Virus record (IMG/VR): IMGVR_UViG_3300029573_000061
Location: 1 to 12,697 of that record
Reading direction: 5' to 3' (one strand)
Source of the DNA: a virus
Length of the DNA stretch: 12,697 nt
Shown: piece after piece, positions 1 through 12,697 of the stretch
Layout: the number at the start of each line of letters is the position of its first letter
How positions within the stretch are numbered: the first letter of the stretch is position 1
Program-made: the position numbers and the translations under genes
Notes under the pieces: generated by a model
The model's input: the letters and a program-made list of their open reading frames with translations, nothing else
What the model was told of the DNA's origin: nothing
Databases searched by the model: none

Positions 1-198
1 GACAGCTACGACCCGAAGACCAACACGCGCACTATCTCAAAGATTGAAAAAGTCTACGAGGTCAGCGTTTGCCCGTTCCCGGCTTACCCGGCGGCAAGCG
101 TTGAAGCGCGGAAGGCACGGCAAGACGGATTGAACCGCCTGGAAGCACTGAACAACGCGCGGATTCTTGCAAACATCATTTTGGCAAAGGAGTTTTAA
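1..198 (+). CDS. Prohead protease, HK97 family (C-terminal part of the gene that begins at 12218 and crosses the circular junction)
   Basis: Frame 1 from base 1 continues the frame of the ATG at 12218 (12599 is codon position 1 and equals base 1). Translation reads ...GMSFAFKVPQGGDSYDPKTNTRTISKIEKVYEVSVCPFPAYPAASVEARKARQDGLNRLEALNNARILANIILAKEF and stops at TAA 196-198. The catalytic-region motifs resemble HK97 gp4/U35 peptidases. The gene lies between portal and capsid as in HK97-like head modules. Confidence 0.8.
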   Translation, partial: DSYDPKTNTRTISKIEKVYEVSVCPFPAYPAASVEARKARQDGLNRLEALNNARILANIILAKEF

Positions 199-200
199 CC

Positions 201-1454
201 ATGTTTAAGACCGTTCAAGACGCATTCAACCACTACCGCAACTATTCCCTTGCGGACATTGAGAAGCGCGCCCAGGAGGTCAAGGGCGTTATTGAGACAG
301 ACCCCGGCGTAGACATCAAGGCCCTTAACATTGAGCTTACCGGCCTTGCGGAAGCCAAGGCCAACGCCCAGGAGAAGCAGGGCGACCAGGGCGGCGCACA
401 GGGCGCACAGGAGCCGGAGGCACGCGGCTACAACCCCATCACCGGCGCGAACTTTGCGGGCGGAAGCTACCAGGCGACCACGGGCGACGTTTACGCAAGC
501 GCGGAGTACCGCAGCGCCTTCTACAAGACCCTTACGGGCAAGAGCCTTAACCAGGCGGAGAAGAACGCATTTAACCGCGCTATGGAGATTGAGAAGCGGG
601 CCGGTTCGGACGCTTACACCACTTCCGGCAACACGCCCGTTATCATCCCAACGGCCACGCTCAACGAGATTGTGAGCAAGGCCCGCAACGAGGGCGGCAC
701 GCTTTCCATTGCCCGCGCGTTCAACATGCCCAGCAAGATTAGCATTCCCGTTGCCACGCCTTCCGGCAAGGCCGCATGGCACACGGAGGGCGCTACCGTG
801 AACACGGAGCAGCCCAGCGTTACCAACGTCACCTTTGACGCCAACGAGATTATCAAGATTTTCTCTATCAGCGCCAAGGTTAAGACCATGAGCATTAGCG
901 CGTTTGAGTCCTATCTTGCGGACGAACTCAACAAGTGCGTGTTTGAGTGCATCGCCGACAGCCTTATCAACGGCAACGGCACCAACCAGGGCATGGGACT
1001 TGAGAAGGGCGTTACCTGGAACGCCGAGAACAGCGTTACCGTTGCCAAGGGCGGTTCTATCGCCTACGCGGACGTTGTTAACACGGTTGCCCTTCTGAAG
1101 CGCGGCTATTCCAAGGGCGCTAAGTGGGTCATGAACAATGCCACCCTTTACCGCGTCTTCTATGGGATGCTGGACGGCAACAAGCGCCCCGTCTTCATCG
1201 CCGACACCCAGAACGACGGCATTGGCAAGATTCTGGGCTTTGAGGTTGTCGTAGATGATTATGTGGCCGACAACGTTTGCTATTTCGGCAACTTTGACTA
1301 TCTGGGCTACAACCTTGCCAACGGCATTGCGGTTGAGTCTTCTACCCAGTCCGCCTTCCGTTCCGGCCTTATCGACTATCGCGGCATGGCCATCGCCGAC
1401 ACGCGCGTTATCGTGCCGGAAGCCTTCACCAAGCTTGCCATTGCCACGGCCTAG
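201..1454 (+). CDS. Major capsid protein, HK97 fold, with an N-terminal scaffolding (delta) domain
   Basis: A 417-aa ORF begins 3 bp after the protease stop, with an AAGGAG ribosome-binding site at 187-192. The charged, coiled-coil-like N-terminal region (EKRAQEVKG...AEAKANAQEKQ) is followed by a capsid-fold region with an HK97-like C-terminus (GNFDYLGYNLANGIAVESS...GMAIADTRVIVPEAFTKL). Codon bias is strong toward CTT, CGC and AAC. Confidence 0.88.
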   Translation: MFKTVQDAFNHYRNYSLADIEKRAQEVKGVIETDPGVDIKALNIELTGLAEAKANAQEKQGDQGGAQGAQEPEARGYNPITGANFAGGSYQATTGDVYASAEYRSAFYKTLTGKSLNQAEKNAFNRAMEIEKRAGSDAYTTSGNTPVIIPTATLNEIVSKARNEGGTLSIARAFNMPSKISIPVATPSGKAAWHTEGATVNTEQPSVTNVTFDANEIIKIFSISAKVKTMSISAFESYLADELNKCVFECIADSLINGNGTNQGMGLEKGVTWNAENSVTVAKGGSIAYADVVNTVALLKRGYSKGAKWVMNNATLYRVFYGMLDGNKRPVFIADTQNDGIGKILGFEVVVDDYVADNVCYFGNFDYLGYNLANGIAVESSTQSAFRSGLIDYRGMAIADTRVIVPEAFTKLAIATA

Positions 1455-1466
1455 GGGGTATAGCGC

Positions 1467-1739
1467 ATGGCACAGGTTATAAGCATTGACGAAGCCCGCG
1501 AGTGGTTGCGCCTGGACGGCACCGACAACGACGCGGTTGTTTCCGGGCTTATCGACGGCGCGGCGGAGTACATCGCCATTGCTACCGGCCTGGACGCGAA
1601 CGCGCAAGCACAAAGCCCGTTGGCAAAGACGGCGACGAAGTTTCTTCTTTCGCTTTGGTACGACCCAACGCAGACCGACACCGACAGGCTGCAACGTTCA
1701 ATCGACAACCTGCTAAAGGCGGTTACGCACGTGGGCTAA
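1467..1739 (+). CDS. Head-tail connector protein (gp6-like, Phage_connect_1 family)
   Basis: A 90-aa protein beginning MAQVISIDEAREWLRLDGTDNDAVVSGLIDGAAEYIAIATG...LLSLWYDP...SIDNLLKAV. The size, N-terminal EA(K/R)xxLRxD motif and position immediately after the capsid gene match gp6-like head completion proteins. Confidence 0.75.
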   Translation: MAQVISIDEAREWLRLDGTDNDAVVSGLIDGAAEYIAIATGLDANAQAQSPLAKTATKFLLSLWYDPTQTDTDRLQRSIDNLLKAVTHVG

Positions 1740-1755
1740 AGGTGAGTGGTGGGCT

Positions 1756-2046
1756 ATGAAGGAATGGGCTAGACCGTTCTACACTTCCACGGCCTGGAGG
1801 AAGACCCAAAGGGCCTACATGGAAAGCAAGCACTATGTATGCGAGCGTTGCGGGAAACCCGCCTACATAGTCCACCACAAGACCTATCTAACGCCTAAGA
1901 ACATAGGCGACCCGGCAATAACGTTGGCATGGGACAACCTGGAAGCCCTATGCCAAACGTGCCACCAGCACGAGCATTTCAGAAACAACCAGGTAACGGC
2001 ACCGGGCTTGCGTTTCGACGCATCCGGGCAATTGACAAAGGAATAG
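1756..2046 (+). CDS. HNH endonuclease (phage packaging-associated)
   Basis: A 96-aa ORF carries WRKTQRAY...CERCGK...VHHKTYL...DNLEALCQTCHQHEH, the classic HNH and zinc-finger motifs. It sits just upstream of the terS-terL pair, as in HK97-like cos phages where the HNH protein assists terminase cleavage. Confidence 0.85.
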   Translation: MKEWARPFYTSTAWRKTQRAYMESKHYVCERCGKPAYIVHHKTYLTPKNIGDPAITLAWDNLEALCQTCHQHEHFRNNQVTAPGLRFDASGQLTKE

Positions 2047-2068
2047 GCGTTACGTTGCAGCAGACCGT

Positions 2069-2084
2069 TTGGGCCGTGGCCCAA
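2069..2084. repeat. Perfect 16-bp palindrome TTGGGCCGTGGCCCAA directly downstream of the HNH gene
   Basis: The reverse complement of TTGGGCC is GGCCCAA, with a 2-nt spacer. No T-tract follows, so it is not a canonical intrinsic terminator. It may be a protein-binding site, part of cos, or an RNA hairpin. Confidence 0.5.
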
Positions 2085-2465
2085 CCGTAACCCACGCGCA
2101 AGACCTATGGGGCCCTTGCCGGACTAGTCACCCGGCGGCGCTAACTAGTTCTTTCCGGTTCTTCTTCTTAGCGGTTCTTGTACCGGCCCCGGGCGGCGTG
2201 GAGTGGCGACCCATCCTAGCGCAAGGGCGGCAAGCCACGCGGTACCGCACGGAAGGGCTAGGCGGAAGCCTACGAACTGGGCGGGCTATCCTTACTTCTT
2301 CATCACCCAACCAGCTAGCGCGGTTCAAACGGCCTACTGGAGCGCAACGACCTAACCCGGACACCCCCAGCCCCCGAACGGACGGAAGGCGCGGCGTAAT
2401 CGAGCTGCCTACCTTTCCTTACCCGTCCGGGGTTTTCCATATGAGGGGGGTATATTTTGATATGA

Positions 2466-2481
2466 AAGACAGCAAGACAGC
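2466..2481 (+). promoter_or_regulatory. Tandem AAGACAGC x2 motif (copy 1 of 3 loci), abutting TTGACA at 2482-2487, upstream of terS
   Basis: The exact string AAGACAGCAAGACAGC recurs at 10863-10878 and as three units at 5050-5073. Each copy is intergenic and upstream of an operon. Confidence 0.6.
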
Positions 2482-2502: not shown

Positions 2503-2850
2503 ATGGAGATAGACAAAGACAAAATCAGACGCGCGGAAACGCGCAAGCTTAACCGGCTTGTTAAGGCCGTGCCGGACGAAAAGAAGACCGTTGCACAGAG
2601 CCTAACCAGGGAACTTGTCTTCATGGCGGGGACGCTGGAGGAGCTAAGGGCGTTCGTTGACGAAAACGGCGCGGTTGACAACTTCAAAAACGGGCGGCAA
2701 GAGATGCTAAGGGAATCCCCGGCGTTGAAGAGCTACAGTACGCTTATTCAGCGCTACAGCCTTCTTTACAAGCAGCTTTGCGACCTACTGCCTAAAGAGG
2801 TAGCCAAACAGGCGGAAGACGAACTAATGAACTTCCTGGGCATGGGCTAG
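2503..2850 (+). CDS. terS: Terminase small subunit, P27 family
   Basis: A 115-aa protein MEIDKDKIRRAETRKLNRLVKAVPDEKKTVAQSLTRELVFMAGTLEELRAF...YSLLYKQLCDLL matches the pattern of P27-family small terminases paired with HNH and Terminase_1 TerL. The start is chosen at the ATG at 2503, since the TTG at 2482 lacks a ribosome-binding site. The gene lies directly upstream of terL. Confidence 0.75.
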   Translation: MEIDKDKIRRAETRKLNRLVKAVPDEKKTVAQSLTRELVFMAGTLEELRAFVDENGAVDNFKNGRQEMLRESPALKSYSTLIQRYSLLYKQLCDLLPKEVAKQAEDELMNFLGMG

Positions 2851-2863: not shown

Positions 2864-4504
2864 ATGAACTACCTAAAAGCCTACCTGGACGCGATAGAAG
2901 GCGGTGAGATTGTCGTATGCAAGCGGATACGGAAGGTTTACACGCGCCTTGTCTACGAAGCGGAAAACCCCGGCAAGTATCGCTTTGACGAAGAGCGGGC
3001 AAACCGCCCCATAGAATTCATTGAGCGCTTTTGCAAGCACAGCAAGGGCGAATGGGCGGGGCAACCCGTGCGCCTGGAGCTATTCCAGAAAGCTTTCATT
3101 AGTGCCTTGTTCGGCTTTGTTGACAGCAAGACAGGCTTTAGAAAGTACCGTGAAGCCTTCTTCATGGTTGCCCGGAAGAACGGAAAAAGCACGATGCTTG
3201 CGGGCATCGCCCTATACATGTTGCTTGCGGACGGGGAAGCGGGCGCGGAAGTCTACAGCGTTGCCACGAAGAAAGACCAGGCCAAAATCATTTTTGACGA
3301 AGTTTGCCACATGGTGAGCCAAAGCCCCTACCTGCGTAAGCACATCAAGAAGCGCAAAAGTGACCTTTACTTTTCGGCTTCAATGAGCAAGCTACAGCCC
3401 CTGGGCAAGAATTCCGACACCCTGGACGGCCTTAATTCGTCTTGCGTAATCCTGGACGAAGCCCACGCGGTGAAAGACCGCAACTTGTACGAGGTAATGA
3501 AGCAATCGCAAAGCGCTAGGACGCAGCCACTTTTCGTCACAATCACCACGGCGGGAACCGTGCGGGAATGCATCTTCGACGATATGTATTCCTACGCTTG
3601 CAAGGTTGCGGACGGGGTAATAACAGACCCAACATTTTTGCCAATCGTCTACGAGCTGGACAGCAAGGCCGAATGGAAAGACCCCGGCGCATGGTTCAAG
3701 CCAAACCCAGGGCTAGGACGGATAAAGAAGCTTGAAGACCTAATGGCGAAAGTCGAACGCGCAAAGCAAAGCCCAAAAGACCTTAGCGGCATTCTCTGCA
3801 AGGACTTCAACGTAAGGGAAACGCTTTACAACGCATGGCTTGACTTCGACACGATTAACAACGAATCGACATTCAGCCTAGAAGACTTTAGGGGTTGCTA
3901 TGCCATAGGCGGCGCGGACTTGTCACTAACGACAGACCTAACGTGTGCAACCGTCCTAATGCTCAACCCGGAAACGCGCGAGCGGTTCGTTTGGCAAATG
4001 TATTGGCTACCGGAAGACAACTTCAACCAGCGCGTTGCAGAGGAAAAAATACCCTACGACAAATGGCGGGAAGCGGGCCTGGTAAGGCTTTGCCGGGGAA
4101 ACACAATCGACTATAGCGACGTGACAGCGTGGTTTCTGGAGCTAGTCAACGAACACGGCATAACGCCTCTATGGGTTTACTACGACAGTTGGAGCGCCCG
4201 TTACTGGGTTGAGGAAATGGAGGGCTACGGCTTCAAAATGGAGCGGTGCATACAGGGGGCCAAGACGCTTTCACTTCCAATGCAAAACCTGGGCGCGGAC
4301 TTGCAGGCAAAGAAAGTCAACTACAACAACAACCCAATCTTGAAATGGTGCCTAACCAACACGGCGGTACAGGAAGACAGGAACGGCAACATAGTCCCAA
4401 AGAAGGCAAGCAGCCCGAAACAGCGCATAGACGGCACGGCAAGCCTTCTGGACGCTTACGTAGGGCTTTACGAGAAATACAACGAGTTTCTAAACGCACT
4501 GTAG
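2864..4504 (+). CDS. terL: Terminase large subunit (Terminase_1 family: ATPase plus RNaseH-like nuclease)
   Basis: A 546-aa protein with the Walker A-like motif VARKNGKST, a Walker B/DE region (SCVILDEAHAV) and a C-terminal nuclease motif (KQRIDGTASLLDAYV). The GGGGCGGCAAGG ribosome-binding region precedes the ATG at 2864. Confidence 0.9.
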   Translation: MNYLKAYLDAIEGGEIVVCKRIRKVYTRLVYEAENPGKYRFDEERANRPIEFIERFCKHSKGEWAGQPVRLELFQKAFISALFGFVDSKTGFRKYREAFFMVARKNGKSTMLAGIALYMLLADGEAGAEVYSVATKKDQAKIIFDEVCHMVSQSPYLRKHIKKRKSDLYFSASMSKLQPLGKNSDTLDGLNSSCVILDEAHAVKDRNLYEVMKQSQSARTQPLFVTITTAGTVRECIFDDMYSYACKVADGVITDPTFLPIVYELDSKAEWKDPGAWFKPNPGLGRIKKLEDLMAKVERAKQSPKDLSGILCKDFNVRETLYNAWLDFDTINNESTFSLEDFRGCYAIGGADLSLTTDLTCATVLMLNPETRERFVWQMYWLPEDNFNQRVAEEKIPYDKWREAGLVRLCRGNTIDYSDVTAWFLELVNEHGITPLWVYYDSWSARYWVEEMEGYGFKMERCIQGAKTLSLPMQNLGADLQAKKVNYNNNPILKWCLTNTAVQEDRNGNIVPKKASSPKQRIDGTASLLDAYVGLYEKYNEFLNAL

Positions 4505-4518: not shown

Positions 4519-4923
4519 ATGGCCGGAAAACAGGTTCTAAAGGATAAGAAAATCGTTATCTACAAGAAGCTAAGCTATAGGGATGCGGAGGGCTATCCGA
4601 CTACCGGCTATATGCCGGTACACCCGCAGCCTAGTATCTGGGCTTACTTCAAACAGCTTTCGACAAGCCTTGTCTATGCGAGCAGCACCACGACCACAAA
4701 GGAAGATTGCCTTTTCCGTATCAATTGGCTGGATTGCTTGCGCACGGCTTACCCCAGCGACCTGGTAATCGGGTATAGGGGCATTCTCTACCAGGTTACG
4801 CGCATTGACCCATACGAGGACTATACGCGCGACATGGTTTTGTACGGTAGCCGAAAGGACGGCAATACCATTAGCCCAATAATCCCTTACGACCCCAAGA
4901 AGCTAGCCCAAAACGGGAAATAG
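4519..4923 (+). CDS. Head closure / head-tail joining protein (Phage_H_T_join, SPP1 gp16-like)
   Basis: A 134-aa ORF with a strong ribosome-binding site (AAGGAGGG) before the ATG at 4519. It carries the family-typical C-terminal pattern ...KEDCLFRINWLDCLRTAYPSDLVIGYRGILYQVTRIDPYEDYTRDMVLYG. The long ORF-track N-terminal extension (4246-4518) overlaps terL and is rejected. Confidence 0.7.
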   Translation: MAGKQVLKDKKIVIYKKLSYRDAEGYPTTGYMPVHPQPSIWAYFKQLSTSLVYASSTTTTKEDCLFRINWLDCLRTAYPSDLVIGYRGILYQVTRIDPYEDYTRDMVLYGSRKDGNTISPIIPYDPKKLAQNGK

Positions 4924-4986: not shown

Positions 4987-5031
4987 CGGCCTTTTAGAAC
5001 GCCTTAAAAGCGATTCTAGAAGGCCGTTTTT
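4987..5031 (+). terminator. Rho-independent terminator candidate after the terS-terL-head closure operon
   Basis: CGGCCTT (4987-4993) pairs with AAGGCCG (5020-5026), and inner pairing is TAGAA/TTCTA and CGC/GCG around a CTTAAAA loop. A TTTTT tract follows at 5027-5031. The hairpin is long and imperfect. Confidence 0.5.
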
Positions 5032-5049
5032 CTATGCAAACAAAGCTAG

Positions 5050-5073
5050 CAAGACAGCAAGACAGCAAGACAG
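5050..5073 (+). promoter_or_regulatory. Tandem CAAGACAG x3 motif (copy 2 of 3 loci), 20 bp upstream of a -35 element
   Basis: The sequence is CAAGACAGCAAGACAGCAAGACAGC, the same 8-mer unit as at 2466-2481 and 10863-10878. Confidence 0.6.
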
Positions 5074-5092
5074 CAAACAAATCAAAAATCTA

Positions 5093-5122
5093 TTGACAAG
5101 TTAGCCATATGGCCGTTAAAAT
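5093..5122 (+). promoter_or_regulatory. Sigma70-type promoter (-35 TTGACA, 18-bp spacer, -10 TAAAAT)
   Basis: TTGACA lies at 5093-5098 and TAAAAT at 5117-5122. The shared CATATGG..TAAAAT core also occurs at the portal-operon promoter (10933-10945). The predicted transcription start is near 5130, upstream of the SD-preceded ATG at 5163. Confidence 0.6.
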
Positions 5123-5162: not shown

Positions 5163-5978
5163 ATGGTTAACGTTATCGACCTATCGGACATTGGGGCGGC
5201 AAGGGAAGACGAAAAGCCAAAGAGCAAGGGCATTCACATTGCCGTCATTGAGCCGGGGAAAGACCCGTACTTGAAGAAGGTAGCCCCGGACGCGGACGGC
5301 AGCTATCTGGGCGCGTTTCAAGACGAGGTAGGCGTGCTTGTGGAAGCCTACGAACCGCCATTCGGTGAAACGCCCTTGCTTTGGGTCAACGAAGAACTTC
5401 CGTTCAACGGCTCAACGCCAAACCGCGCAATCTACGCAAACAAGCGCATGGAGGGCATGGGCTATCTTTCCGAATTCGGCGACCACAGCAAGGCGGTAAA
5501 GGCGGGCGAGCTGTACGGCATCATTTGCGGCACGTTCATTGCCGTTTCGTACGACAGGGACGAAGAGGGCAACGACAAGCCCAGGGACATAACCGTAGAA
5601 GAATGGCTGGACGTGTGCGCGGCTTTCGCGGGCATCCGCAGCGTTCTTAGCGGTGCCCTGGAGGTCACGGGCCTACAGCGCGAGCATTGCACCGAACACA
5701 TAAAGGTGAACTTGCCCGGAAGCAAGGCGGACGAAGGCACCGGCAACGGTGAAGGCGTTTGGGTTCTTGTGAACAAGCCCGTGAAAGAAGACTACGACGC
5801 GGACGCGCGGGGCGGTTTCTATTTCGGCATCCTGGACAACGATTCTTGCTATTGGCCCGGACTCAACCACGGGGCCGTTATCCCGTTCGAAATGCGCGGC
5901 GACAAGCGACCCGTAGCGCCATATGAATGGCTTTACGACGGTTCAGAGCGCGAAAAGAAGTTCGGGAAGCTGGACTAG
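5163..5978 (+). CDS. DUF3846-like domain protein (N-terminal domain) with an uncharacterised C-terminal region
   Basis: The N-terminal segment IHIAVIEPGKDPYLKKVAPDADGSYLGAFQDEVGVLVEAYEPPFGETPLLWVNEELPFNGSTPNRAIY...GELYGIICGTFIAVSYDRDEEGNDKPRDITVEEWLDV follows my remembered DUF3846 pattern (IEPGK...LQ..VGG.IE...NEEG...N...I.G.F.I). That domain is common on conjugative and mobile elements, often near anti-restriction genes. The start is chosen at the ATG at 5163 (AAGGGG ribosome-binding site), because the ATGs at 5109 and 5121 fall inside the predicted promoter. Confidence 0.45.
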   Translation: MVNVIDLSDIGAAREDEKPKSKGIHIAVIEPGKDPYLKKVAPDADGSYLGAFQDEVGVLVEAYEPPFGETPLLWVNEELPFNGSTPNRAIYANKRMEGMGYLSEFGDHSKAVKAGELYGIICGTFIAVSYDRDEEGNDKPRDITVEEWLDVCAAFAGIRSVLSGALEVTGLQREHCTEHIKVNLPGSKADEGTGNGEGVWVLVNKPVKEDYDADARGGFYFGILDNDSCYWPGLNHGAVIPFEMRGDKRPVAPYEWLYDGSEREKKFGKLD

Positions 5979-6374: not shown

Positions 6375-6833
6375 ATGGGAAGCTATACCCTTTACGCCCT
6401 TGCTGTACCGGACGGGCGAATACCGCGCCTTTACGTGGGCGTTACCGCCCAGAAGCCTACTAGGCGCTGGAACGGCGGCGAGGGCTACAAGAGCTCGGCA
6501 AAGTTCTACCAGGCAATCAAGGCTTGCGGCTGGAACAACGTTAGGCACTTCATCATTGCGGACGGCTTGACGGAAGAAGAAGCCTACAGGCTGGAGCGCG
6601 AGGAAATAGGCCGAATGCGGCTAACCGCCCTGGGCTGGAACGTGGCACCGGGCGGCAAGGAACCATGGAACAAGGGCAAGACGGGCGTTTTCACAGCGGA
6701 AGCCCTGGAGAAAATGCGGCGGGCGAAGATAGGCAACAAATACGCGGCGAAGAAGAGAAAGGGGCCGGAATATGAAGGCGATAGCGATAGTGAACCAGAA
6801 GGGCGGCGTTGGAAAGACAACGACAGCCGTTAA
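6375..6833 (+). CDS. GIY-YIG nuclease family protein with a NUMOD3-like motif (homing-endonuclease-like)
   Basis: TLYALAV...RLYVGVTAQKPTRRW has the GIY-(10 aa)-YIG spacing and the conserved Arg. The downstream acidic motif LEREEI and the segment GKTGVFTAEALEKMRRAKIGNK resemble a NUMOD3 DNA-binding module. The 3' end overlaps parA by 62 nt in another frame. Confidence 0.55.
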   Translation: MGSYTLYALAVPDGRIPRLYVGVTAQKPTRRWNGGEGYKSSAKFYQAIKACGWNNVRHFIIADGLTEEEAYRLEREEIGRMRLTALGWNVAPGGKEPWNKGKTGVFTAEALEKMRRAKIGNKYAAKKRKGPEYEGDSDSEPEGRRWKDNDSR

Positions 6834-7532: not shown

Positions 7533-7838
7533 ATGGCAAGAAAGAAAGACTTTGGACTAGAAGCGGTTGAAGCGTTCCTGGACGCGGACGAACAGGAAGA
7601 GAAGCAACAGGAAGAGAAGAAGGCAAAGAGGGAAGCCACCCTGGTTTCATGGCGCATAAGCAACGACACGCTAAGGCGGTTCAAGGGCTTTGCAATCATG
7701 AACGGCGGCACCCAGATAGAAGCCATTGAGAAGGTAATTAACGACTACCTGGACGGCAAGGCGCTGGAGCCGGAAGAGAAACAGGCATACGACGCTTTCA
7801 TGAGGGTTTACAAGCCCAGAAAAAACGGAGGTGCATAG
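7533..7838 (+). CDS. Ribbon-helix-helix (ParG/CopG-like) protein, likely the centromere-binding partner of ParA
   Basis: A 101-aa protein with an acidic/Lys-rich flexible N-terminus followed by an RHH-like segment (ATLVSWRISNDTLRRFKGFAIMNGGTQIEAIEKVINDYL). Its position directly downstream of parA is typical of type Ib partition cassettes. Confidence 0.55.
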   Translation: MARKKDFGLEAVEAFLDADEQEEKQQEEKKAKREATLVSWRISNDTLRRFKGFAIMNGGTQIEAIEKVINDYLDGKALEPEEKQAYDAFMRVYKPRKNGGA

Positions 7839-7840: not shown

Positions 7841-8080
7841 ATGCGAATGCAGATTGACGGCGTTACCTACTACGACAAGGACGAAGTTGCAAAGCTTTTC
7901 AACTGTTCCACGCGGACGGTAAGGCGCTACCAGCTTGCGGGCCACTTTGAGCAAAGGAAGGTAAACCGTAGTTGGTTCTTCACGGAGCAAAGCGTTTTGG
8001 ACTACCTGGAGCAAAGGGGCATCGTCTGCTATGCAAAGCCGGAAAAGAAGGGGGGCGCTACGAATGAGCAGAAAAATTAG
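7841..8080 (+). CDS. Helix-turn-helix DNA-binding protein (MerR/Xis/AlpA-like, HTH_17)
   Basis: A 79-aa protein carrying YYDKDEVAKLFNCSTRTVRRYQLAGHF, the characteristic excisionase/AlpA-type HTH. A GGAGGTG ribosome-binding site precedes the ATG. Confidence 0.6.
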   Translation: MRMQIDGVTYYDKDEVAKLFNCSTRTVRRYQLAGHFEQRKVNRSWFFTEQSVLDYLEQRGIVCYAKPEKKGGATNEQKN

Positions 8081-9224
8081 CGTTGTCGAATACGTGGGCA
8101 AGAGCCTGGGCGGGCGTAACTTGAAGGCCCTGGGCAATGCCCTGGGAACGTTGGTTGACAAGGGCGTAATTGAGTTTCACGAGGGCGCTAGCGCCGGATA
8201 CCTGGACAGCCTGGAGCTTGCGGACGGCAAGACGCTTGAAGACGTGGACGCGGCACTAGCGGACTACCTGCAAGCACAGACGGAGCCGAAGAGCGGCACG
8301 GCAATACGGACTTTGCGCGGACAGTACGAAAAAGGGCTAATAGTGCCTAGGGACGCTGTAACAAAGCGCGTCTTTGACGGTATGCCGTTCGACATTGAAA
8401 CGGCTATACAAGTCGTTAGCAAGGAATGCGCGGCGGACAGGTGCGCAAAAGACGTAATAGTTACCCTACGCAACAACCAGACAAAAATAAACGAAGTCAT
8501 GGACAAGCTTAACGCGGACGATAGGCGCGTTTTTGCGGCTATATGCAATTGCGTTGCCCAGGGAATACATAGGGTTACGCCAACGCAGCTTTTCAGGCTT
8601 GCATACCAGGAACCGAACGCCACGCCCTGGGAAACCCAACTGGAGCGAATGCACGACAGCATAGAGAAAATGGCAAGCATATACATAGTGCTTGACGTTA
8701 GCGCGATTTTTTCAATTTACCCAGAATTGAACATGATAAAGACGGAAGGCAACTTCATAGAGGTTACGGGGTGGGCATTCAGACCACACAAGGACGGCAA
8801 AATATCAACGTTCTACGAGTTCGGGCGGGCTATACCGGTTCTATACCAGTACGCCTTAGCCGTAAACCAAATGACAACCCTAAAGCCCACGAGGGCCAAC
8901 GCGCTTAGCACGAATCTAAGAAGGACGAAGGACAACCAGGCCGTTGTGCAGCTAATCGCCGACAGGGTAGACGGCCTGGAGGGAATGAAGAAGGGCGGCA
9001 AGAAGCCCTATAGGAACATGTACAAAATCAACTATCAAAGCTTTTACGACCGGGCGGACTTTTCTAAATGCTCATCAGACGATTCAAAGAAGAAGAAGCG
9101 CCAACGCATAAAGAATGCCGTTAGAAAACAGCTTGACTACCTTACGGAGCGCGGCGTAATCGCGAGTTGGGAACGCCTGGAGGACGGCACGGGCGTTGCC
9201 ATCAACCCCGGAGGGGCGGCGTAA
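8064..9224 (+). CDS. Hypothetical protein, possible replication initiator / iteron-binding protein
   Basis: A 386-aa ORF taking the ATG at 8064 (ribosome-binding site AAGAAGGGGGG), with an alternative ATG at 8031 that lacks one. No family is recognised. A wHTH-like segment (DDRRVFAAICNCVAQGIHRVTPTQLFRLAY) and a basic C-terminus (KKKKRQRIKNAVRKQLDYLTERG) are present. The gene lies between the regulator and primase genes, upstream of the iteron region. Confidence 0.3.
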   Translation: MSRKISVVEYVGKSLGGRNLKALGNALGTLVDKGVIEFHEGASAGYLDSLELADGKTLEDVDAALADYLQAQTEPKSGTAIRTLRGQYEKGLIVPRDAVTKRVFDGMPFDIETAIQVVSKECAADRCAKDVIVTLRNNQTKINEVMDKLNADDRRVFAAICNCVAQGIHRVTPTQLFRLAYQEPNATPWETQLERMHDSIEKMASIYIVLDVSAIFSIYPELNMIKTEGNFIEVTGWAFRPHKDGKISTFYEFGRAIPVLYQYALAVNQMTTLKPTRANALSTNLRRTKDNQAVVQLIADRVDGLEGMKKGGKKPYRNMYKINYQSFYDRADFSKCSSDDSKKKKRQRIKNAVRKQLDYLTERGVIASWERLEDGTGVAINPGGAA

Positions 9225-9226
9225 CC

Positions 9227-10213
9227 ATGCGGGCGCTAAGGAACATACCGGAAGAGTTGAAGGCCGTACCGCATTGGGTAACGCGCGGCATCAGCGGCGG
9301 CGGCGCGGCAGACCGCAAGAAGCCATACAACCCAAACACCAACGCCCCGGCTAGGGTAAACAACCCCAACACCTGGGCGACGTTCGAAGCGTGCGAGAAG
9401 GCCGTAAGGCGGGCGAGGTACAGCGGCCTGGGCTTTGTCTTCACCGGGGATTATCTGGTAATAGACCTGGACAACGTAATAGACGCAAGGGGCAACGTGC
9501 TAAGGGACGCGGCGCGGATAATCGAAGCCGTGGACAGCTACACGGAGAAGAGCCTAAGCGGGCGCGGCTTTCACATCATCGCCCACAAGCCGCCCTTTGA
9601 AATCGGCGTGAACCGCGCAAGCTTTGCCCTGGACGAAGCCACGCTAGCGAGGTTCACGCGGGAAGAGCTGGACAGGGCCACGGGCGAGCTACGCGAGAAA
9701 AGGCCCGGAATAGAGTTTTACGACAGCGGGCGTTACATGGCGCTTACGGGCGACGTGTACCAGGGGCGCGACACGATAAGTGAAGCGCCGGAAGCCCTGG
9801 AGCGCGTCTATAGCGCCTACGTTGCGGGCGCTAGGGCCACGCAAGCCCAGAAGCCGCGCGTTGCGGCAAGCTACGCCACGGGCGGCAACCTGGAGACTGT
9901 AAGGGCGCGAATGTTCAGAGGGCGCAACCGCGACCAGATAAGACAGCTTTGGAGCGGCGACGTTAGCGCATGGGGAAGCGAAAGCGAAGCGGCGCTAAGG
10001 CTTTGCGACCATCTAGCCTTCTACACGGACAAAGACCCGGCGCAAATGGCGGCGCTATTCCGCCAAAGCGGGCTTTACCGCGCAAAGTGCGACGAACCGC
10101 GCGGGAACGGCAAAACATGGCTTGACGTTGTGATAGAAAAGGCAATGGCAAAGCCAATGGCGACTTATAGCGAATACGTGCAAGGCCACAGAAGCCCGTA
10201 TAAGGAGGGCTAG
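9227..10213 (+). CDS. DNA primase-polymerase (Prim-Pol N-terminal domain plus PriCT-like C-terminal motif), with no helicase domain
   Basis: The segment LKAVPHWVTRG...KKPYNPNT...NNPNTWATFEACEKAV...YSGLGFVFTGDYLVIDLDNV...SYTEKSLSGRGFHII follows the bifunctional primase/polymerase pattern seen in plasmid, PICI and P4 primases. The C-terminal SESEAALRLCDHLAFYTDKDPAQMAALFRQSGLYRAKCDEP matches the PriCT-type motif. A GGAGGGG ribosome-binding site precedes the ATG at 9227. Confidence 0.7.
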   Translation: MRALRNIPEELKAVPHWVTRGISGGGAADRKKPYNPNTNAPARVNNPNTWATFEACEKAVRRARYSGLGFVFTGDYLVIDLDNVIDARGNVLRDAARIIEAVDSYTEKSLSGRGFHIIAHKPPFEIGVNRASFALDEATLARFTREELDRATGELREKRPGIEFYDSGRYMALTGDVYQGRDTISEAPEALERVYSAYVAGARATQAQKPRVAASYATGGNLETVRARMFRGRNRDQIRQLWSGDVSAWGSESEAALRLCDHLAFYTDKDPAQMAALFRQSGLYRAKCDEPRGNGKTWLDVVIEKAMAKPMATYSEYVQGHRSPYKEG

Positions 10214-10235
10214 GCACCAAACGGGGCATTTGCCC

Positions 10236-10286
10236 ACGAACTGAATTAAAGGCCGTAGAAACGGCATCACAGCGCCCCACAGGGGC
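10236..10286 (+). repeat. Roughly 50-bp imperfect direct repeat, copy A (its 3' half is the terminator hairpin)
   Basis: GAACTGAATTAAAGGCCGTAGAAACGGCATCACAGCGCCCCACAGGGGC at 10236-10286 is matched at 10419-10469 by GAACGAATTTAAAGCGGTTCTAGGGGCATCACAGCGCCCCACAGGGGC. The last 24 bp are identical in both copies. Confidence 0.7.
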
Positions 10287-10297
10287 GTTTTTCTTTT
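10271..10297 (+). terminator. Strong intrinsic terminator after the primase gene
   Basis: The stem CGCCCC (10273-10278) pairs with GGGGCG (10282-10287) around an ACA loop, extended by an A-T pair. The tract TTTTTCTTTT at 10288-10297 follows. Confidence 0.75.
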
Positions 10298-10568: not shown

Positions 10569-10569
10569 T

Positions 10570-10635
10570 CAAACCATGTAGAAGTGTCCCCCAAACCATG
10601 TAGAAGTGTCCCCCAAACCATGTAGAAGTGTCCCC
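10570..10635. repeat. Three perfect tandem 22-bp iterons (CAAACCATGTAGAAGTGTCCCC), putative replication origin
   Basis: The copies run 10570-10591, 10592-10613 and 10614-10635 and abut head-to-tail with no spacers. An AT-rich tract with a 2 x 10-bp tandem repeat (TACAAGTCTT at 10692-10711) follows. The region lies in a 770-bp non-coding stretch downstream of the primase operon. Confidence 0.7.
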
Positions 10636-10862
10636 CCCATTTTCGCCAAAAACGGCCTATTACCAGCGATAACGGCCAATTTTCCATTCGCTACAAGTCT
10701 TTACAAGTCTTTCTATCTATTACCTAATACAGGAAGGGGTACTAGTAAGACAGACTCACCTGTTAGTAGAAGCGCCCCAAAATCTTTTCTTCATTGCCTG
10801 GAGCGGAAAAGCGGGCGGACGAAAAACGCGCGGAAGTTTTCAACATTCCCATCTTTGCCACA

Positions 10863-10878
10863 AAGACAGCAAGACAGC
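10863..10878 (+). promoter_or_regulatory. Tandem AAGACAGC x2 motif (copy 3 of 3 loci), upstream of the portal operon promoter
   Basis: The 16-mer is identical to the one at 2466-2481. Confidence 0.6.
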
Positions 10879-10921
10879 TTAAATGTATAAGTGTATACCC
10901 ATGATGCATGTTTTGCTATGA

Positions 10922-10945
10922 TTGACAGCTTGCATATGGTAAAAT
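10922..10945 (+). promoter_or_regulatory. Promoter candidate for the portal-protease-capsid operon (extended -10 TGgTAAAAT; TTGACA 12 bp upstream)
   Basis: TTGACA lies at 10922-10927 and TGGTAAAAT at 10937-10945. The CATATGG-TAAAAT core is shared with the 5093-5122 promoter. The direct repeats GATTGAC x2 plus CATTGAC at 10956-10981 lie between the promoter and the portal start and are operator-like. Confidence 0.5.
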
Positions 10946-11000
10946 CGTCTATAGCGATTGACGATTGACTATCGTTCATTGACTTTTGGGGGGTGAAGAA

Positions 11001-12221
11001 GTGGGATTCTTGCAGACATTCAAGCGGCGTTTTCGTCCTGGGCGCGAACTTTCGCAGGTTCAGACGCTTACGGGCAACACGGCGACCTATACGGCATTCA
11101 GCGGCGGCGCTTACGATAACGACATTTACCGTGGAGCGGTTGACGCTATCGCACGCAATGCGGCAAAGCTCAAAGGGGCGCACATCGTCACCGGGGCGGA
11201 CAACCAGGCAAAGGCCGGGGACAAGTCACTAGACAGGCTTTTGCAGATTCAGCCAAACCCCTATATGACGGCCTACGACCTTATCTATAAGCTTTGCACC
11301 CACTACTATCTGAACAACAACGCCTTTGCCTTCCTGGACAGGGACGGGCGCGGGGCCGTTCGCAACGTGTACCCCATCACTTGCACCCAGGCGGACTTCT
11401 TGACCGATGCAAGCGGGCGGCTTTTCGTGCAATTCCGCTTTAGGAGCGGTAACACGTTCGTTCTTCCGTATGGCGACGTTATCCACTTGCGGCGCAACTT
11501 CAACAGCAACGACCTTATGGGCGACACAAACGAAGCCCTTTACCCGGCCCTGGAGCTAGCGCACACGGAGAATGAGGGCATTATCAACGGCATCAAGAGC
11601 GGCGCGACCATCCGGGGCATTCTCAAATACACCCAGGTTCTTGCACCGGAGAAGTTGAAGGCCGACAAAGAAGCGTTCATAGCCGAATACCTGGACGTTG
11701 CCAACAATGGCGGCATTGTCGCCACGGATTCAAAAAGCGAATACGTGCCGATTGACAGCAAGCCCGTTACCATCGACCCGGAGCAGACGAAGACCACGGC
11801 GACGAAGATTTACAACTACCTGGGAATTTCGGAGAAAATCGTAAATTCGACCTATTCGGAAGACGAATGGGGCGCGTTCTACGAATCCGTTATTGAGCCG
11901 TTCGCCCTTCTGCTTTCCCTGGAGTTCACGCGCAAGGTTTTCACGGAGCGCGAACGCGCATTCGGCAACGAAATTCGTTTCGGCGCGGGGCGGCTTATGT
12001 ACGCATCAAACCAAACGAAGATTGAGACGGTACGCGAGCTAATGCCGTTCGGCGTTCTTACTGTCAACCAGGCTTTGGAGATTCTCAACCTTCCGCCCGT
12101 TGAAGACGGCGACAGGCGTTTGCAGTCGCTCAACAACGCCAACACGGAGATTGTGGACAGCTACCAGCAGCAGAAGGCGGCGGGGACGGCCCCGGACACT
12201 GAAAAGGGGGCTACGGCATGA
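11001..12221 (+). CDS. Portal protein, HK97 family
   Basis: The ORF frame runs 10986-12221. The likely start is the GTG at 11001, which has a GGGGGGTGA ribosome-binding region. The TTG at 10986 is the ORF-track start. The 406-aa length, the position upstream of the protease and capsid genes, and the 4-bp ATGA overlap with the protease start at 12218 all fit a portal gene. Confidence 0.8.
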   Translation: MGFLQTFKRRFRPGRELSQVQTLTGNTATYTAFSGGAYDNDIYRGAVDAIARNAAKLKGAHIVTGADNQAKAGDKSLDRLLQIQPNPYMTAYDLIYKLCTHYYLNNNAFAFLDRDGRGAVRNVYPITCTQADFLTDASGRLFVQFRFRSGNTFVLPYGDVIHLRRNFNSNDLMGDTNEALYPALELAHTENEGIINGIKSGATIRGILKYTQVLAPEKLKADKEAFIAEYLDVANNGGIVATDSKSEYVPIDSKPVTIDPEQTKTTATKIYNYLGISEKIVNSTYSEDEWGAFYESVIEPFALLLSLEFTRKVFTERERAFGNEIRFGAGRLMYASNQTKIETVRELMPFGVLTVNQALEILNLPPVEDGDRRLQSLNNANTEIVDSYQQQKAAGTAPDTEKGATA

Positions 12222-12697
12222 AAGAGCTAAGGACAGCGACAATCAAGGCGGACGCGCCCACGGCAGAGGGCGGCGGAAACCTTGTTTTGATAGGTACGCC
12301 AATCGTCTACGACACCCCGACAACGATTAACGACCCAGCGGGAAGCTACACGGAAGTTATCAAGCGCGGGGCGCTGGACGGCGCGGACATTGCGGACAGC
12401 CGTTTGCTTTACAACCACGACCTAAACCGCATCCCGCTAGCGCGTACACCCAAGACGCTTCATTTCAACGTCACCGGCAGGGGGCTTGAAATGCGGGCGG
12501 AATTGCCGGACACGGAGGAAGCGCGTTCTATTTACACGGCAGTGAAGCGCGGCGACCTATCCGGCATGAGTTTTGCGTTCAAGGTGCCACAGGGCGGCGA
12601 CAGCTACGACCCGAAGACCAACACGCGCACTATCTCAAAGATTGAAAAAGTCTACGAGGTCAGCGTTTGCCCGTTCCCGGCTTACCCGGCGGCAAGC
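12218..12697 (+). CDS. Prohead protease, HK97 family (N-terminal part; continues at 1-198 across the circular junction)
   Basis: The ATG at 12218 overlaps the portal stop, with an AAAGGGGG ribosome-binding site upstream. Translation reads MKELRTATIKADAPTAEGGGNLVLIGTPIVYDTPTTINDPAGSYTEVIKRGALDGADIADSRLLYNHDLNRIPLARTPKTLHFNVTGRGLEMRAELPDTEEARSIYTAVKRGDLSGMSFAFKV... and shows the H/S protease motifs of the U35 family. Confidence 0.8.
   Translation, partial: MKELRTATIKADAPTAEGGGNLVLIGTPIVYDTPTTINDPAGSYTEVIKRGALDGADIADSRLLYNHDLNRIPLARTPKTLHFNVTGRGLEMRAELPDTEEARSIYTAVKRGDLSGMSFAFKVPQGGDSYDPKTNTRTISKIEKVYEVSVCPFPAYPAAS
12599..12697. repeat. Terminal 99-bp exact duplication of bases 1-99 (circular-contig overlap)
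   Basis: Bases 12599-12697 are identical to bases 1-99 and sit inside the protease coding frame, which they keep continuous. This implies a 12,598-bp circular unit. Confidence 0.9.

What the first reader, a model, noticed from the sequence alone, without database searches (positions are those of the whole stretch)
1..12697. 12.6-kb circular episome that encodes a full head-assembly and DNA-packaging module plus plasmid-style replication and partition, but has no tail, lysis or integrase genes
The sequence shows portal, prohead protease, HK97 capsid, gp6-like connector, head-closure protein, TerS, TerL and a packaging HNH. It also shows ParA plus an RHH protein, a primase, an initiator candidate and an iteron origin. 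That is everything needed to build and fill a capsid and to persist as a low-copy plasmid. Nothing encodes a tail, tape measure, baseplate, holin/endolysin or integrase. Capsid-forming PICIs (cf-PICIs) are integrative islands with the same head and packaging gene set that steal only tails from helper phages. This element looks like an extrachromosomal, ParA-partitioned counterpart, or alternatively the smallest kind of phage-plasmid. At about 12.6 kb it is far below the genome size of any autonomous tailed phage. Its capsid protein is of normal size, so a single copy may not fill a head and it may be packaged as concatemers.
Basis: partly seen in the sequence, partly recalled or inferred. Interest (0 to 1): 0.9.

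Follow-up and report, generated by a model that had tools for sequence, protein, structure and literature searches.

The report
Capsid-making satellite plasmid of gut Bacillota
This is a complete 12.6-kb circular plasmid that makes and fills its own phage head but has no tail, lysis or integration genes. It is a plasmid-borne version, from Gram-positive gut bacteria, of the "capsid-forming" phage satellites, a lifestyle so far proposed only for a few Vibrio elements.

Summary
The window is a 12,598-bp unit closed by an exact 99-bp terminal repeat. All genes lie on one strand.

- **Head and packaging genes:** portal, S78 protease, HK97-type capsid, gp6-like connector, HNH, a TerS-position protein, TerL and a head-closure protein.
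- **Plasmid genes:** ParA, a ribbon-helix-helix (RHH) protein, an HTH_17 protein, a 386-aa winged-helix protein, a prim-pol and 3 x 22-bp iterons.
- **Absent:** no tail, lysis or integrase gene, and no membrane-spanning protein.

It is not a fragment. Eight related contigs close as circles of 12.0-14.1 kb with breakpoints in different genes.

Its packaging genes are 68-87% identical to those of integrase-bearing islands in Bacillota genomes that match Firmicutes cf-PICIs. Across the related loci, integrase and ParA never co-occur. ParA-type elements never sit on contigs longer than 14.3 kb (Fisher p = 1.6e-5). The two modules swapped at least five times.

The concept already exists in the literature as cf-PISP, described in Vibrio only. 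This is therefore a new, independently derived Bacillota variant.

One new lead came out of the work. Eight-bp repeat arrays precede all three gene blocks and co-vary with the RHH protein. This suggests an omega-like protein that both partitions the plasmid and represses the head genes.

Helper dependence, induction and capsid size remain inferred.

The parts
12218..12697 (+). Prohead serine protease, N-terminal part. The gene runs through the circular junction and ends at 198.
   Evidence: It is an intact 192-aa ORF only after circularisation. Matches PF04586 at E = 4e-29.
1..198 (+). Prohead protease, C-terminal part. Positions 1-99 duplicate 12599-12697. Stop codon at 196-198.
201..1454 (+). 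HK97-fold major capsid protein (417 aa) with an N-terminal delta/scaffold region of about 145 aa.
   Evidence: PF05065 at E = 2e-33, matching residues 147-412. dN/dS about 0.21.
1467..1739 (+). gp6-like head-tail connector (adaptor).
   Evidence: PF05135 at E = 8e-07, above the Pfam cut-off.
1756..2046 (+). Packaging-associated HNH endonuclease.
   Evidence: PF01844 at E = 1e-08.
2047..2465 (.). Non-coding HNH-TerS spacer and candidate cos/terminase recognition region. Conserved blocks (CCCCCAG, GTAATC, GGTTT..GAGGGGGG) lie near its 3' end.
   Evidence: Every family member has a spacer here, 116-877 bp long. Conserved blocks are seen in alignment A4. No Rfam or tRNA hit. The cos function is inferred.
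2466..2481 (+). AAGACAGC x 2 array, 21 nt upstream of the TerS start codon.
2503..2850 (+). Small-terminase-position protein (115 aa).
   Evidence: Matches phrog_1066 (unknown function) at 1.5e-32. It always lies directly upstream of TerL, also in full phages and phage-plasmids. The TerS role is inferred.
2864..4504 (+). Large terminase (ATPase + nuclease domains).
   Evidence: PF03354 and PF20441. dN/dS 0.03-0.09.
4519..4923 (+). Head-closure / head-completion protein, the stopper that forms the interface to the tail.
   Evidence: PF05521 scores 23.8 bits, just under the cut-off. PHROG Hc1 gives 5e-06. Homologues carry PF05521.
4988..5031 (+). Terminator-like hairpin (12-bp stem) plus T-run, after the packaging block.
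   Evidence: Read directly from the sequence. Conserved in relatives.
5048..5076 (+). AAGACAGC x 3.6 array, 16 nt upstream of the -35 hexamer.
5093..5122 (+). Best sigma-70-type promoter in the window (TTGACA-18-TAAAAT, 11 of 12 matches). It would drive the maintenance/replication block.
5163..5978 (+). DUF3846 protein of unknown function. The ORF opens at 5109, but that start lies inside the promoter.
   Evidence: PF12957 at E = 7e-12.
6049..6369 (+). Zinc-ribbon protein of unknown function.
   Evidence: phrog_2945 at 4e-17. Only weak zinc-ribbon hits.
6375..6833 (+). GIY-YIG/NUMOD-type homing-endonuclease-like protein. It overlaps the parA start by 62 nt.
   Evidence: phrog_314 at 9e-13. PADLOC HEase at 5e-04.
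6772..7530 (+). Small (type Ib-like) ParA partition ATPase.
   Evidence: PF13614 at 9e-57 and PF01656 at 3e-26. NCBIfam ParA_partition at 8e-37, below its cut-off.
7533..7838 (+). Ribbon-helix-helix protein with a disordered N-terminal tail. Candidate centromere-binding protein and repressor.
   Evidence: A profile of 13 ParA-adjacent homologues hits the RHH structure 2kel at E = 0.0012.
7841..8080 (+). HTH_17 (AlpA/Xis/MerR-like) DNA-binding protein.
   Evidence: PF12728 at 1e-09.
8064..9224 (+). 386-aa multi-winged-helix protein, the candidate iteron-binding initiator.
9227..10213 (+). Primase-polymerase-like protein without a helicase domain.
   Evidence: PF22763 at 4e-19. PHROG DNA primase at 3e-58.
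10271..10297 (+). Intrinsic terminator after the replication block.
10570..10636 (+). Three exact 22-bp iterons (CAAACCATGTAGAAGTGTCCCC), followed by the lowest-GC stretch of the window (0.45). Putative origin.
   Evidence: Homologous 21-22-bp iterons occur in relatives.
10863..10878 (+). AAGACAGC x 2 array upstream of the head operon.
10937..10945 (+). Extended -10 promoter-like element (TGgTAAAAT) in front of the portal gene.
   Evidence: Read directly from the sequence. Not reported by the consensus scan.
10986..12221 (+). Portal protein. The likely true start is GTG at 11001, behind a GGGGGGTGA ribosome-binding site.
   Evidence: PF04860 at 8e-53.

Best explanation
The window is the complete genome of a capsid-forming phage satellite that lives as a low-copy plasmid instead of a chromosomal island. 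In the published nomenclature this is a cf-PISP. Its host is a gut-associated member of the Bacillota.

**Carried (plasmid) state, inferred.** Replication starts at the 22-bp iterons, using the winged-helix protein and the prim-pol. The ParA/RHH pair segregates the copies. The RHH protein probably binds the 8-bp AAGACAGC arrays in front of all three gene blocks. It would then serve both as centromere-binding protein and as repressor of the head and packaging genes, as omega does on pSM19035.

**Transfer state, inferred.**
- After derepression, by an unknown trigger that may be a helper phage, portal, protease and capsid protein build proheads.
- HNH, the TerS-position protein and TerL cut at a cos-type site in the HNH-TerS spacer and package unit-length DNA of about 12.6 kb.
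- The gp6-like adaptor and the head-closure protein seal the head.
- Cell lysis and a tail must come from a co-resident or co-occurring tailed phage.

**What is shown and what is inferred.** Shown: the gene content, the circularity, the recurrence of the element, its kinship with integrative islands, and the mutual exclusivity of integrase and ParA. Inferred: the plasmid copy control, the regulatory role of the RHH protein, the cos site, the head size and the helper dependence.
For: **Complete circle**
- Exact 99-bp overlap, with the protease ORF restored across it.
- Eight further closed relatives with breakpoints in different genes and the same overall plan: L003, L004, L161, L164, L018, L072, L115 and L130. 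Unit sizes are 12,020-14,069 bp.

**Fixed size**
- Homologues of the 386-aa protein occur only on contigs of 12.9 kb or less.
- Head-closure homologues (110 clusters) lie on contigs of 14.6 kb or less. The exceptions are five contigs of about 21-25 kb. The one with a full gene map (L173) is two units in tandem, and the part of L169 that was fetched also shows no tail gene.

**Same lineage as integrative cf-PICI-like islands**
- 465 TerL relatives in IMG/VR and 141 in GTDB genomes.
- Integrase-bearing relatives sit on contigs of up to 1.28 Mb.
- L133 in an Anaeromassilibacillus isolate has integrase, cI-like repressor, primase/VapE and a protease-capsid fusion. This fusion is the Firmicutes cfPICI trait described in PMC10085698.

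**Alternative lifestyles**
- Integrase (24 loci) and ParA (21 loci) never co-occur in the first 80 loci.
- In the full set, 45 loci are integrase-type and 28 ParA-type, again with none carrying both.
- 0 of 29 ParA-type contigs exceed 16.1 kb, against 19 of 45 integrase-type contigs; Fisher p = 1.6e-5.
- At least 5 switches on a neighbour-joining TerL tree.

**Functional, not decaying:** dN/dS is 0.03-0.25 for head and packaging genes.

**No tail, lysis or integrase genes**.

**Plasmid features**
- ParA and an RHH profile hit.
- Iterons conserved in relatives.
- 8-bp arrays at three sites, with 0 expected by chance.
- The arrays co-vary with the RHH protein and not with the HTH_17, winged-helix or prim-pol proteins.

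**Published precedent:** Vibrio cf-PISP (PMC13230959), and cf-PICIs that release tail-less heads and then take up free tails (bioRxiv 10.1101/2025.02.11.637232).
Against: - Everything is in silico. There is no read-depth, virion-DNA or host-linkage data.
- No helper phage was found. The head-closure protein has no detectable relative in cultured phages, nor on any phage-sized contig.
- No cI/Stl-type repressor is present, so the induction route is unknown.
- Circular assembly alone cannot tell a plasmid from an excised replicating form. The lack of an integrase and the presence of ParA argue against the latter.
- The array in front of TerS has no recognisable -10 element, so its status as an operator is uncertain.
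Confidence: 0.75

Rival explanations
1. It is a fragment or mis-assembly of a larger tailed phage or prophage, or the excised circular intermediate of an integrative island.
For: Short-read assemblers can produce false terminal overlaps. The element's closest kin include integrated islands.
Against: - The junction restores an intact protease gene, and L002 and L164 span it.
- Nine independent circles of 12.0-14.1 kb break in different genes.
- There is no integrase.
- ParA-type relatives are never on contigs above 14.3 kb.
- Homologues of the 386-aa protein and of the head-closure protein are confined to contigs of about 12-14 kb, or to two units in tandem.
Confidence: 0.03
2. It is a decaying remnant of a phage-plasmid that has lost its tail and lysis modules. 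It would now be an ordinary non-transmissible plasmid carrying dead head genes.
For: Full phage-plasmids with related TerL and TerS-like genes exist in Clostridioides and Bacillus, at 32-55 kb.
Against: - Those TerL proteins are at most about 51% identical. Integrative satellite-like islands reach 68-87%.
- All eight head and packaging genes are intact in dozens of divergent relatives, with dN/dS of 0.03-0.25.
- The size range is narrow.
Confidence: 0.07
3. It is one segment of a split (multipartite) phage-plasmid, or a self-sufficient tail-less transfer agent. Tail and lysis functions would be encoded on a dedicated partner replicon, or not needed at all, rather than taken from an unrelated helper phage.
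For: No helper candidate with a matching neck protein was found anywhere. Elements of this family co-occur as variants in one sample (L173).
Against: - No partner replicon is known.
- The presence of adaptor and stopper genes implies that the head joins a pre-assembled tail.
- Integrative siblings behave as satellites in the published Gram-negative systems (bioRxiv 10.1101/2022.09.08.507074).
- There is no precedent for a tail-less HK97-type head delivering DNA.
Confidence: 0.12

Closest known systems
[quoted passage not shown]
   Same: - A small circular extrachromosomal element (15.8 kb there, 12.6 kb here).
- The full head plus HNH/terminase gene set.
- No tail genes and no canonical integrase.
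- parA and a replication gene.
- The proposed life cycle is the same: vertical inheritance as a plasmid, horizontal spread in its own capsids on helper tails.
   Different: - The phylum differs: Bacillota here, Vibrio there. The authors found no similar element outside Vibrio.
- The head module here belongs to the Firmicutes cf-PICI lineage, so the plasmid form arose independently.
- The backbone differs. Here it is ParA, RHH, HTH_17, a winged-helix protein, a prim-pol and iterons. There it is parA, repA, a ProQ/FinO-like regulator and an Stl-like regulator.
- The window has no tyrosine recombinase, although some relatives (L115, L130) have a small one inside the head module.
[quoted passage not shown]
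   Same: - The same head and packaging gene set, in the same order: morphogenesis genes, then hnh, terS, terL.
- Size of about 12-15 kb.
- No tail or holin genes.
- TerL is 68-87% identical to that of integrase-bearing islands in Bacillota genomes.
   Different: - There is no integrase and no chromosomal site.
- ParA/RHH and a different replication set replace the integrase, cI-like repressor and primase-helicase module.
delta/omega (ParA/RHH) partition-and-regulation system of the inc18 plasmid pSM19035 (from my own knowledge of the literature)
   Same: - A small ParA followed by a small RHH protein.
- Short tandem repeats (7 bp there, 8 bp here) at three separate promoter regions. These could serve both as centromeres and as operators.
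   Different: - No detectable sequence similarity to omega.
- Binding has not been tested.
- Here two of the three targets are virion-gene blocks.
Phage-plasmids (for example the 32-36-kb Clostridioides difficile phage-plasmids and the 44-55-kb Bacillus ones)
   Same: Both combine plasmid maintenance with virion genes. Both have the related TerL and TerS-position proteins.
   Different: Phage-plasmids carry complete tail and lysis modules and are at least 31.9 kb. Their TerL is at most about 51% identical.

Membership tests
cf-PICI | Own capsid, prohead protease and portal genes. | tested here: met
   PF05065, PF04586 and PF04860.
cf-PICI | Head-tail connector and adaptor/closure genes. | tested here: met
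   PF05135 is above its cut-off. PF05521 is 1.2 bits below its cut-off, but PHROG Hc1 gives 5e-06 and homologues are annotated PF05521.
cf-PICI | HNH + TerS + TerL packaging set. | tested here: met
   HNH and TerL by Pfam. TerS only by position and phrog_1066.
cf-PICI | No tail and no holin/lysin genes. | tested here: met
   No hit in four HMM libraries, and no membrane-helix ORF.
cf-PICI | Integrase and residence in a chromosomal attachment site. | tested here: not met
   No recombinase of any kind. The element closes as a circle. ParA-type relatives never lie on long contigs.
cf-PICI | Induction by, and tail capture from, a helper phage. | not testable with these tools
   No helper candidate was found by neck-protein similarity.
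cf-PISP (satellite-plasmid) | Small circular extrachromosomal replicon. | tested here: met
   In silico only. A 99-bp overlap, nine closed relatives of 12.0-14.1 kb, and 0 of 29 on contigs above 16.1 kb.
cf-PISP (satellite-plasmid) | Plasmid maintenance genes (parA, rep). | tested here: met
   ParA at 9e-57, the RHH partner and iterons. The identity of the Rep protein remains inconclusive.
cf-PISP (satellite-plasmid) | The cf-PICI-type head and packaging set, without tails or a canonical integrase. | tested here: met
cf-PISP (satellite-plasmid) | Common descent with the Vibrio TG54 element. | not tested
The head module clusters with Bacillota islands, so independent origin is likely.
Phage-plasmid | A complete virion (head + tail) and a lysis module on the plasmid. 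| tested here: not met
   No tail or lysis genes. Related phage-plasmids are at least 31.9 kb.
Type Ib ParA/RHH partition system (omega/delta-like) | A small ParA without an N-terminal HTH, an RHH gene immediately downstream, and arrays of short repeats as the centromere. | tested here: inconclusive
   - ParA is 252 aa.
- RHH profile hit at E = 0.0012.
- 8-bp arrays at three sites, which co-vary with the RHH protein.
- Binding was not tested.
Iteron-controlled theta replicon | Tandem iterons plus a winged-helix Rep initiator. | tested here: inconclusive
   - Iterons are present and conserved in relatives.

The most novel reading that the evidence does not exclude
The RHH partner of ParA is an omega-like master switch. 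By binding the 8-bp arrays in front of the maintenance block, the terminase block and the head block, it would tie plasmid segregation and copy number directly to repression of virion production. Helper infection, or titration of the protein, would then flip the element from plasmid to particle. Separately, the repeated swaps between integrase and ParA modules would make this family a natural system for studying how satellites move between chromosomal and plasmid life.
Probability: 0.3. Interest if true: 0.75.

Novelty: new variant of a known kind. Interest (0 to 1): 0.6.

Why it matters
- **Breadth.** Capsid-forming satellites that live as plasmids have so far only been proposed, from genome data, for Vibrio. 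This window and its relatives show that the same solution arose independently, and repeatedly, in Bacillota. At least 29 ParA-type loci were found, nine of them closed circles, with G+C from 34% to 55%.
- **Where they occur.** Many of the related sequences come from human and animal gut metagenomes.
- **Why they are missed.** Such elements fall between categories. Phage tools call them incomplete phages, plasmid tools call them non-mobilisable plasmids, and satellite finders require an integrase.
- **Consequence if they work as proposed.** They would be a route of plasmid transfer that needs only free phage tails.
- **A tractable question.** They also offer a compact system in which a partition protein may control capsid production.

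Tried and rejected
- **RNA genes.** The Rfam E-value scan and ARAGORN found no RNA gene, including in the 435-bp HNH-TerS spacer.
- **DNA matches.** Megablast of the whole unit against INPHARED phages and PLSDB plasmids found nothing.
- **Search for a helper phage.** tblastn of the head-closure protein against cultured phages gave no hit. An IMG/VR scan returned only the same small-element family. The 5.8-billion-protein search gave 110 homologues. Their longest contigs are 14.6 kb or less, apart from five of about 21-25 kb. The one with a full gene map (L173) is two units in tandem, and none of the fetched stretches shows a tail gene.
- **TerS-position protein.** A profile search against PDB gave only chance-level hits.
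- **Defence cargo.** PADLOC found nothing convincing in the accessory genes.
- **Repeat arrays in distant ParA-type relatives.** A naive genome-wide 7-mer count was dominated by base composition and was abandoned.
- **Exact look-up.** The long form of the 386-aa ORF was not on record.
- **Antisense ORFs rejected.** The 499-aa ORF antisense to the capsid gene (195-1694) and the 138-aa ORF in the spacer are GC-driven. They have no homologues or family hits.

Full report
**1. What is in the window**

The first and last 99 bases are identical, so the unit is 12,598 bp. All credible genes lie on the + strand.

Starting at the junction and going round the circle:

| Feature | Coordinates | Evidence |
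|---|---|---|
| Prohead protease | 12218 through the junction to 198 | PF04586 |
| HK97-type capsid protein | 201-1454 | PF05065 |
| gp6-like connector | 1467-1739 | PF05135 |
| HNH endonuclease | 1756-2046 | PF01844 |
| Non-coding spacer (435 bp) | 2047-2481 | no gene |
| 115-aa protein in the TerS position | 2503-2850 | phrog_1066 |
| TerL | 2864-4504 | PF03354 + PF20441 |
| Head-closure protein | 4519-4923 | PF05521, 1.2 bits under the cut-off; PHROG Hc1 |
| Hairpin terminator | 4988-5031 | read from sequence |
| DUF3846 protein | 5163-5978 | PF12957 |
| Zinc-ribbon protein | 6049-6369 | phrog_2945 |
| GIY-YIG-like homing-endonuclease homologue | 6375-6833 | phrog_314 |
| ParA | 6772-7530 | PF13614 |
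| 101-aa RHH protein | 7533-7838 | profile hit to PDB 2kel |
| HTH_17 protein | 7841-8080 | PF12728 |
| 386-aa protein without any family | 8064-9224 | none |
| Prim-pol-like protein with an NrS-1-type helix bundle, no helicase | 9227-10213 | PF22763 |
| Terminator | 10271-10297 | |
| Three exact 22-bp iterons | 10570-10636 | |
| Lowest-GC stretch of the window | after the iterons | |
| Portal | 10986-12221 | PF04860 |

Sources for the table are.

The protease ORF is intact only when the sequence is circularised. Nothing matches a tail, tape measure, baseplate, holin, endolysin or recombinase in Pfam, PHROGs, NCBIfam or PADLOC. No ORF has a membrane-helix-like hydrophobic stretch. Three labels rest on indirect evidence: TerS, the RHH protein and the initiator.

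**2. It is a complete circle, not a fragment**

- L002 and L164 (96-99% identical proteins) run across the window's junction.
- Eight related contigs also carry assembler-type terminal repeats. Their breakpoints lie in different genes. Their unit sizes are 12,020-14,069 bp (L003, L004, L161, L164, L018, L072, L115, L130).
- Homologues of the 386-aa protein are found only on contigs of 12.9 kb or less.
- 110 clusters of head-closure homologues lie on contigs of 14.6 kb or less, apart from five contigs of about 21-25 kb. The one with a full gene map (L173) is two units in tandem, and the fetched half of L169 also has no tail gene.

**3. Kinship**

- TerL has 465 relatives in IMG/VR and 141 in GTDB species genomes. 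Most of the best 160 are 64-100% identical.
- Most of the IMG/VR contigs are 11-16 kb. The genome records are Bacillota: Oscillospiraceae, Lachnospiraceae, Christensenellaceae, Clostridium, Cohnella, Priestia and Niallia. A few MAGs carry other labels.
- Gene clustering showed the conserved order portal, protease, capsid, gp6, HNH, TerS-like, TerL, head closure.
- Many members carry a tyrosine integrase and sit on contigs of up to 1.28 Mb.
- L133, from an Anaeromassilibacillus isolate, reads integrase, cI-like repressor, primase/VapE helicase, portal, protease-capsid fusion and so on. This matches the published description of Firmicutes cf-PICIs (PMC10085698; bioRxiv 10.1101/2022.09.08.507074).
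- Cultured phages and PLSDB plasmids with related TerL are full-size (at least 31 kb). Identity is at most about 55% for phages and 51% for plasmids.

**4. Two alternative lifestyles in one family**

- In the first 80 loci, integrase (24) and ParA (21) never co-occur.
- In the full set, 45 loci are integrase-type and 28 ParA-type, again with no overlap.
- No ParA-type contig exceeds 14.3 kb, whereas 19 of 45 integrase-type contigs exceed 16.1 kb (Fisher p = 1.6e-5).
- Every closed circle with ParA has, directly after it, an RHH-like protein of about 100 aa and an HTH_17 protein, followed by a replication module.
- On a neighbour-joining TerL tree, at least five integrase/ParA switches are needed. 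ParA-type TerL proteins are up to about 86% identical to integrase-type ones. The tree is rough, so the number is a lower-bound estimate only.
- Head and packaging genes evolve under purifying selection, with dN/dS of 0.03-0.25 against four relatives. They are in use.

**5. Plasmid functions**

- **ParA.** It is a small Walker-type ATPase.
- **RHH protein.** A profile of 13 ParA-adjacent small proteins hits the RHH regulator 2kel at E = 0.0012 and a CopG-family RHH at 0.18.
- **Iterons.** Iterons of 21-22 bp recur in the same intergenic region of relatives. The consensus is AAACCRTGTARAAGTGT in L164, L003 and L161. L004, L018 and L130 have different ones.

**6. A regulatory lead**

The octamer AAGACAGC forms tandem arrays at three places:
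- x 2 at 2466, 21 nt before the TerS start;
- x 3.6 at 5048-5076, 16 nt before the best promoter in the window (TTGACA-18-TAAAAT, 5093-5122);
- x 2 at 10863, upstream of a TGgTAAAAT element in front of the portal gene.

The 16-mer occurs 4 times against 0 expected.

Among 168 loci the double octamer occurs only in L001, L002 and L164. L001 and L164 have a 96-100% identical RHH protein. Yet L164 has diverged strongly in HTH_17 (66%), the winged-helix protein (51%) and the prim-pol (42%).

Relatives with a 37%-identical RHH protein (L003, L161) carry GTAAGAAY-type 8-bp arrays at the same three positions. So does L004, where no RHH match to the window was detected. L005, L007 and L015 carry TAAACAWG-type arrays before TerS.

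This pattern resembles omega/delta of pSM19035, where one RHH protein is both centromere binder and global repressor (my knowledge of that system, not tested here). It suggests that the partition protein also silences the virion genes. This is a hypothesis.

**7. Packaging and head size**

- Every family member keeps a non-coding spacer between HNH and the TerS-like gene, 116-877 bp long.
- In the window's clade the spacer's 3' part holds blocks that stay conserved while the rest diverges.
- HNH-dependent terminases are known from cos phages of the HK97 type (Kala et al. 2014, as cited in the cf-PICI paper). I therefore place cos here, as an inference.
- The narrow 12.0-14.1-kb size range fits one genome per small head. 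P4 packages 11.6 kb in a T = 4 head (as summarised in bioRxiv 10.1101/2025.06.18.659913). The size of the capsid protein gives no information on this.

**8. Mosaicism**

- Against L164, only the HTH_17, winged-helix and prim-pol block is replaced (42-66% identity against 88-100% elsewhere).
- Against L003 and L161, the head-closure protein is 95-98% identical (dS about 0.17) while the neighbouring TerL is 86% (dS above 1.1). In L004 the head-closure protein is only 57% identical.
- Exchange of neck genes independently of the packaging module is what was reported for cf-PICIs adapting to different tails (bioRxiv 10.1101/2025.02.11.637232).

**9. Comparison with the literature**

- SatelliteFinder found 969 cfPICIs, all but three in chromosomes. 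Elements without an integrase were set aside (PMC10085698).
- A 2025 preprint, published in Nature Communications in 2026, described 15.8-kb circular Vibrio elements with parA, repA and a cf-PICI head set. It named them cf-PISP and reported no similar element outside Vibrio (PMC13230959).
- Full-text searches for satellite-plasmids returned only that work.

The window is therefore the same kind of thing. It was built independently on the Firmicutes cf-PICI head module with a different plasmid backbone, and it belongs to a sizeable, previously undescribed Bacillota group.

**10. Verdict**

It is a new variant of a recently proposed kind. The plasmid state, helper dependence, induction mechanism and the regulatory role of the RHH protein remain to be shown experimentally.

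Noticed in passing
window 2466-2481, 5048-5076, 10863-10878; L164 4717, 8919, 11506; L004/L003/L161 equivalent sites: Tandem 8-bp arrays sit in front of all three gene blocks. Their sequence changes together with the ParA-adjacent RHH protein: AAGACAGC, GTAAGAAY or TAAACAWG in different relatives. It does not change with the HTH_17, winged-helix or prim-pol proteins.
   Followed up: partly
window 4519-4923 against L003, L161 and L004: The head-closure gene is 95-98% identical to that of L003 and L161 (dS about 0.17), while the adjacent TerL is 86% (dS above 1.1). It is only 57% identical in L004. This points to recent recombination at the presumed tail interface.
   Followed up: partly
window 7841-10213 against L164 1699-4089: Only the block of HTH_17, winged-helix protein and prim-pol is swapped between two otherwise near-identical elements (42-66% against 88-100% protein identity). 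The iteron core motif AAACCATGTARAAGTGT is nevertheless kept.
   Followed up: partly
L091 6038-6613; also L115, L130, L038, L042, L089: A 191-aa tyrosine recombinase consisting of the catalytic domain only (PF00589 at 9e-27) sits inside the head module, between the gp6-like connector and HNH. L115 and L130 are closed ParA-type circles that carry it. This recalls the odd recombinase reported inside the Vibrio cf-PISP head module. It may resolve multimers.
   Followed up: partly
L091 (Clostridium sp. K13 scaf_59, 12,653 bp, 77-bp terminal repeat): A cultured isolate carries a closed 12.6-kb member of the family. It has no ParA and no full-length integrase, only the small recombinase and a 404-aa protein with a C-terminal HTH. 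It is a possible experimental entry point.
   Followed up: partly
L173 (ENA ERZ28618987 scaffold, 24,627 bp): Two different ParA-type elements lie head to tail on one scaffold. They have the same head module but different replication genes. This is either a cointegrate or an assembly join of co-resident variants.
   Followed up: no
L111-L113, L116 (MAGs labelled Campylobacter, contigs up to 94.9 kb, about 42% G+C): The Bacillota-type head and packaging module (TerL 69% identical) sits on contigs binned as Campylobacter. This is either mis-binning or cross-phylum spread of a capsid-forming island.
   Followed up: no
window 10224-10286 and 10407-10469: A 63-nt direct repeat (78% identical) lies between the prim-pol gene and the iterons. 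Each copy holds the hairpin GCGCCCCACAGGGGCG. Only the first copy is followed by a T-run (terminator).
   Followed up: no
window 2047-2465 against other family members: The HNH-TerS spacer is 350-460 bp in the window's clade but mostly 130-170 bp elsewhere. The extra G+C-rich part has no Rfam match and no coding signal.
   Followed up: partly
window 6375-6833: A GIY-YIG/NUMOD-like homing-endonuclease homologue lies inside the maintenance operon. Its 3' end overlaps the parA start by 62 nt. Its dN/dS (0.23-0.46) is mostly higher than that of its neighbours.
   Followed up: no
window, whole (composition profile): GC skew is positive from about 2.5 to 10 kb and near zero or negative across the head module. 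The turning points coincide with the candidate cos region and with the iteron region.
   Followed up: no
window 195-1694, minus strand: A 499-aa open frame runs antisense to the capsid gene. It is a by-product of high G+C and has no family hit. It misled a longest-ORF gene caller.
   Followed up: yes
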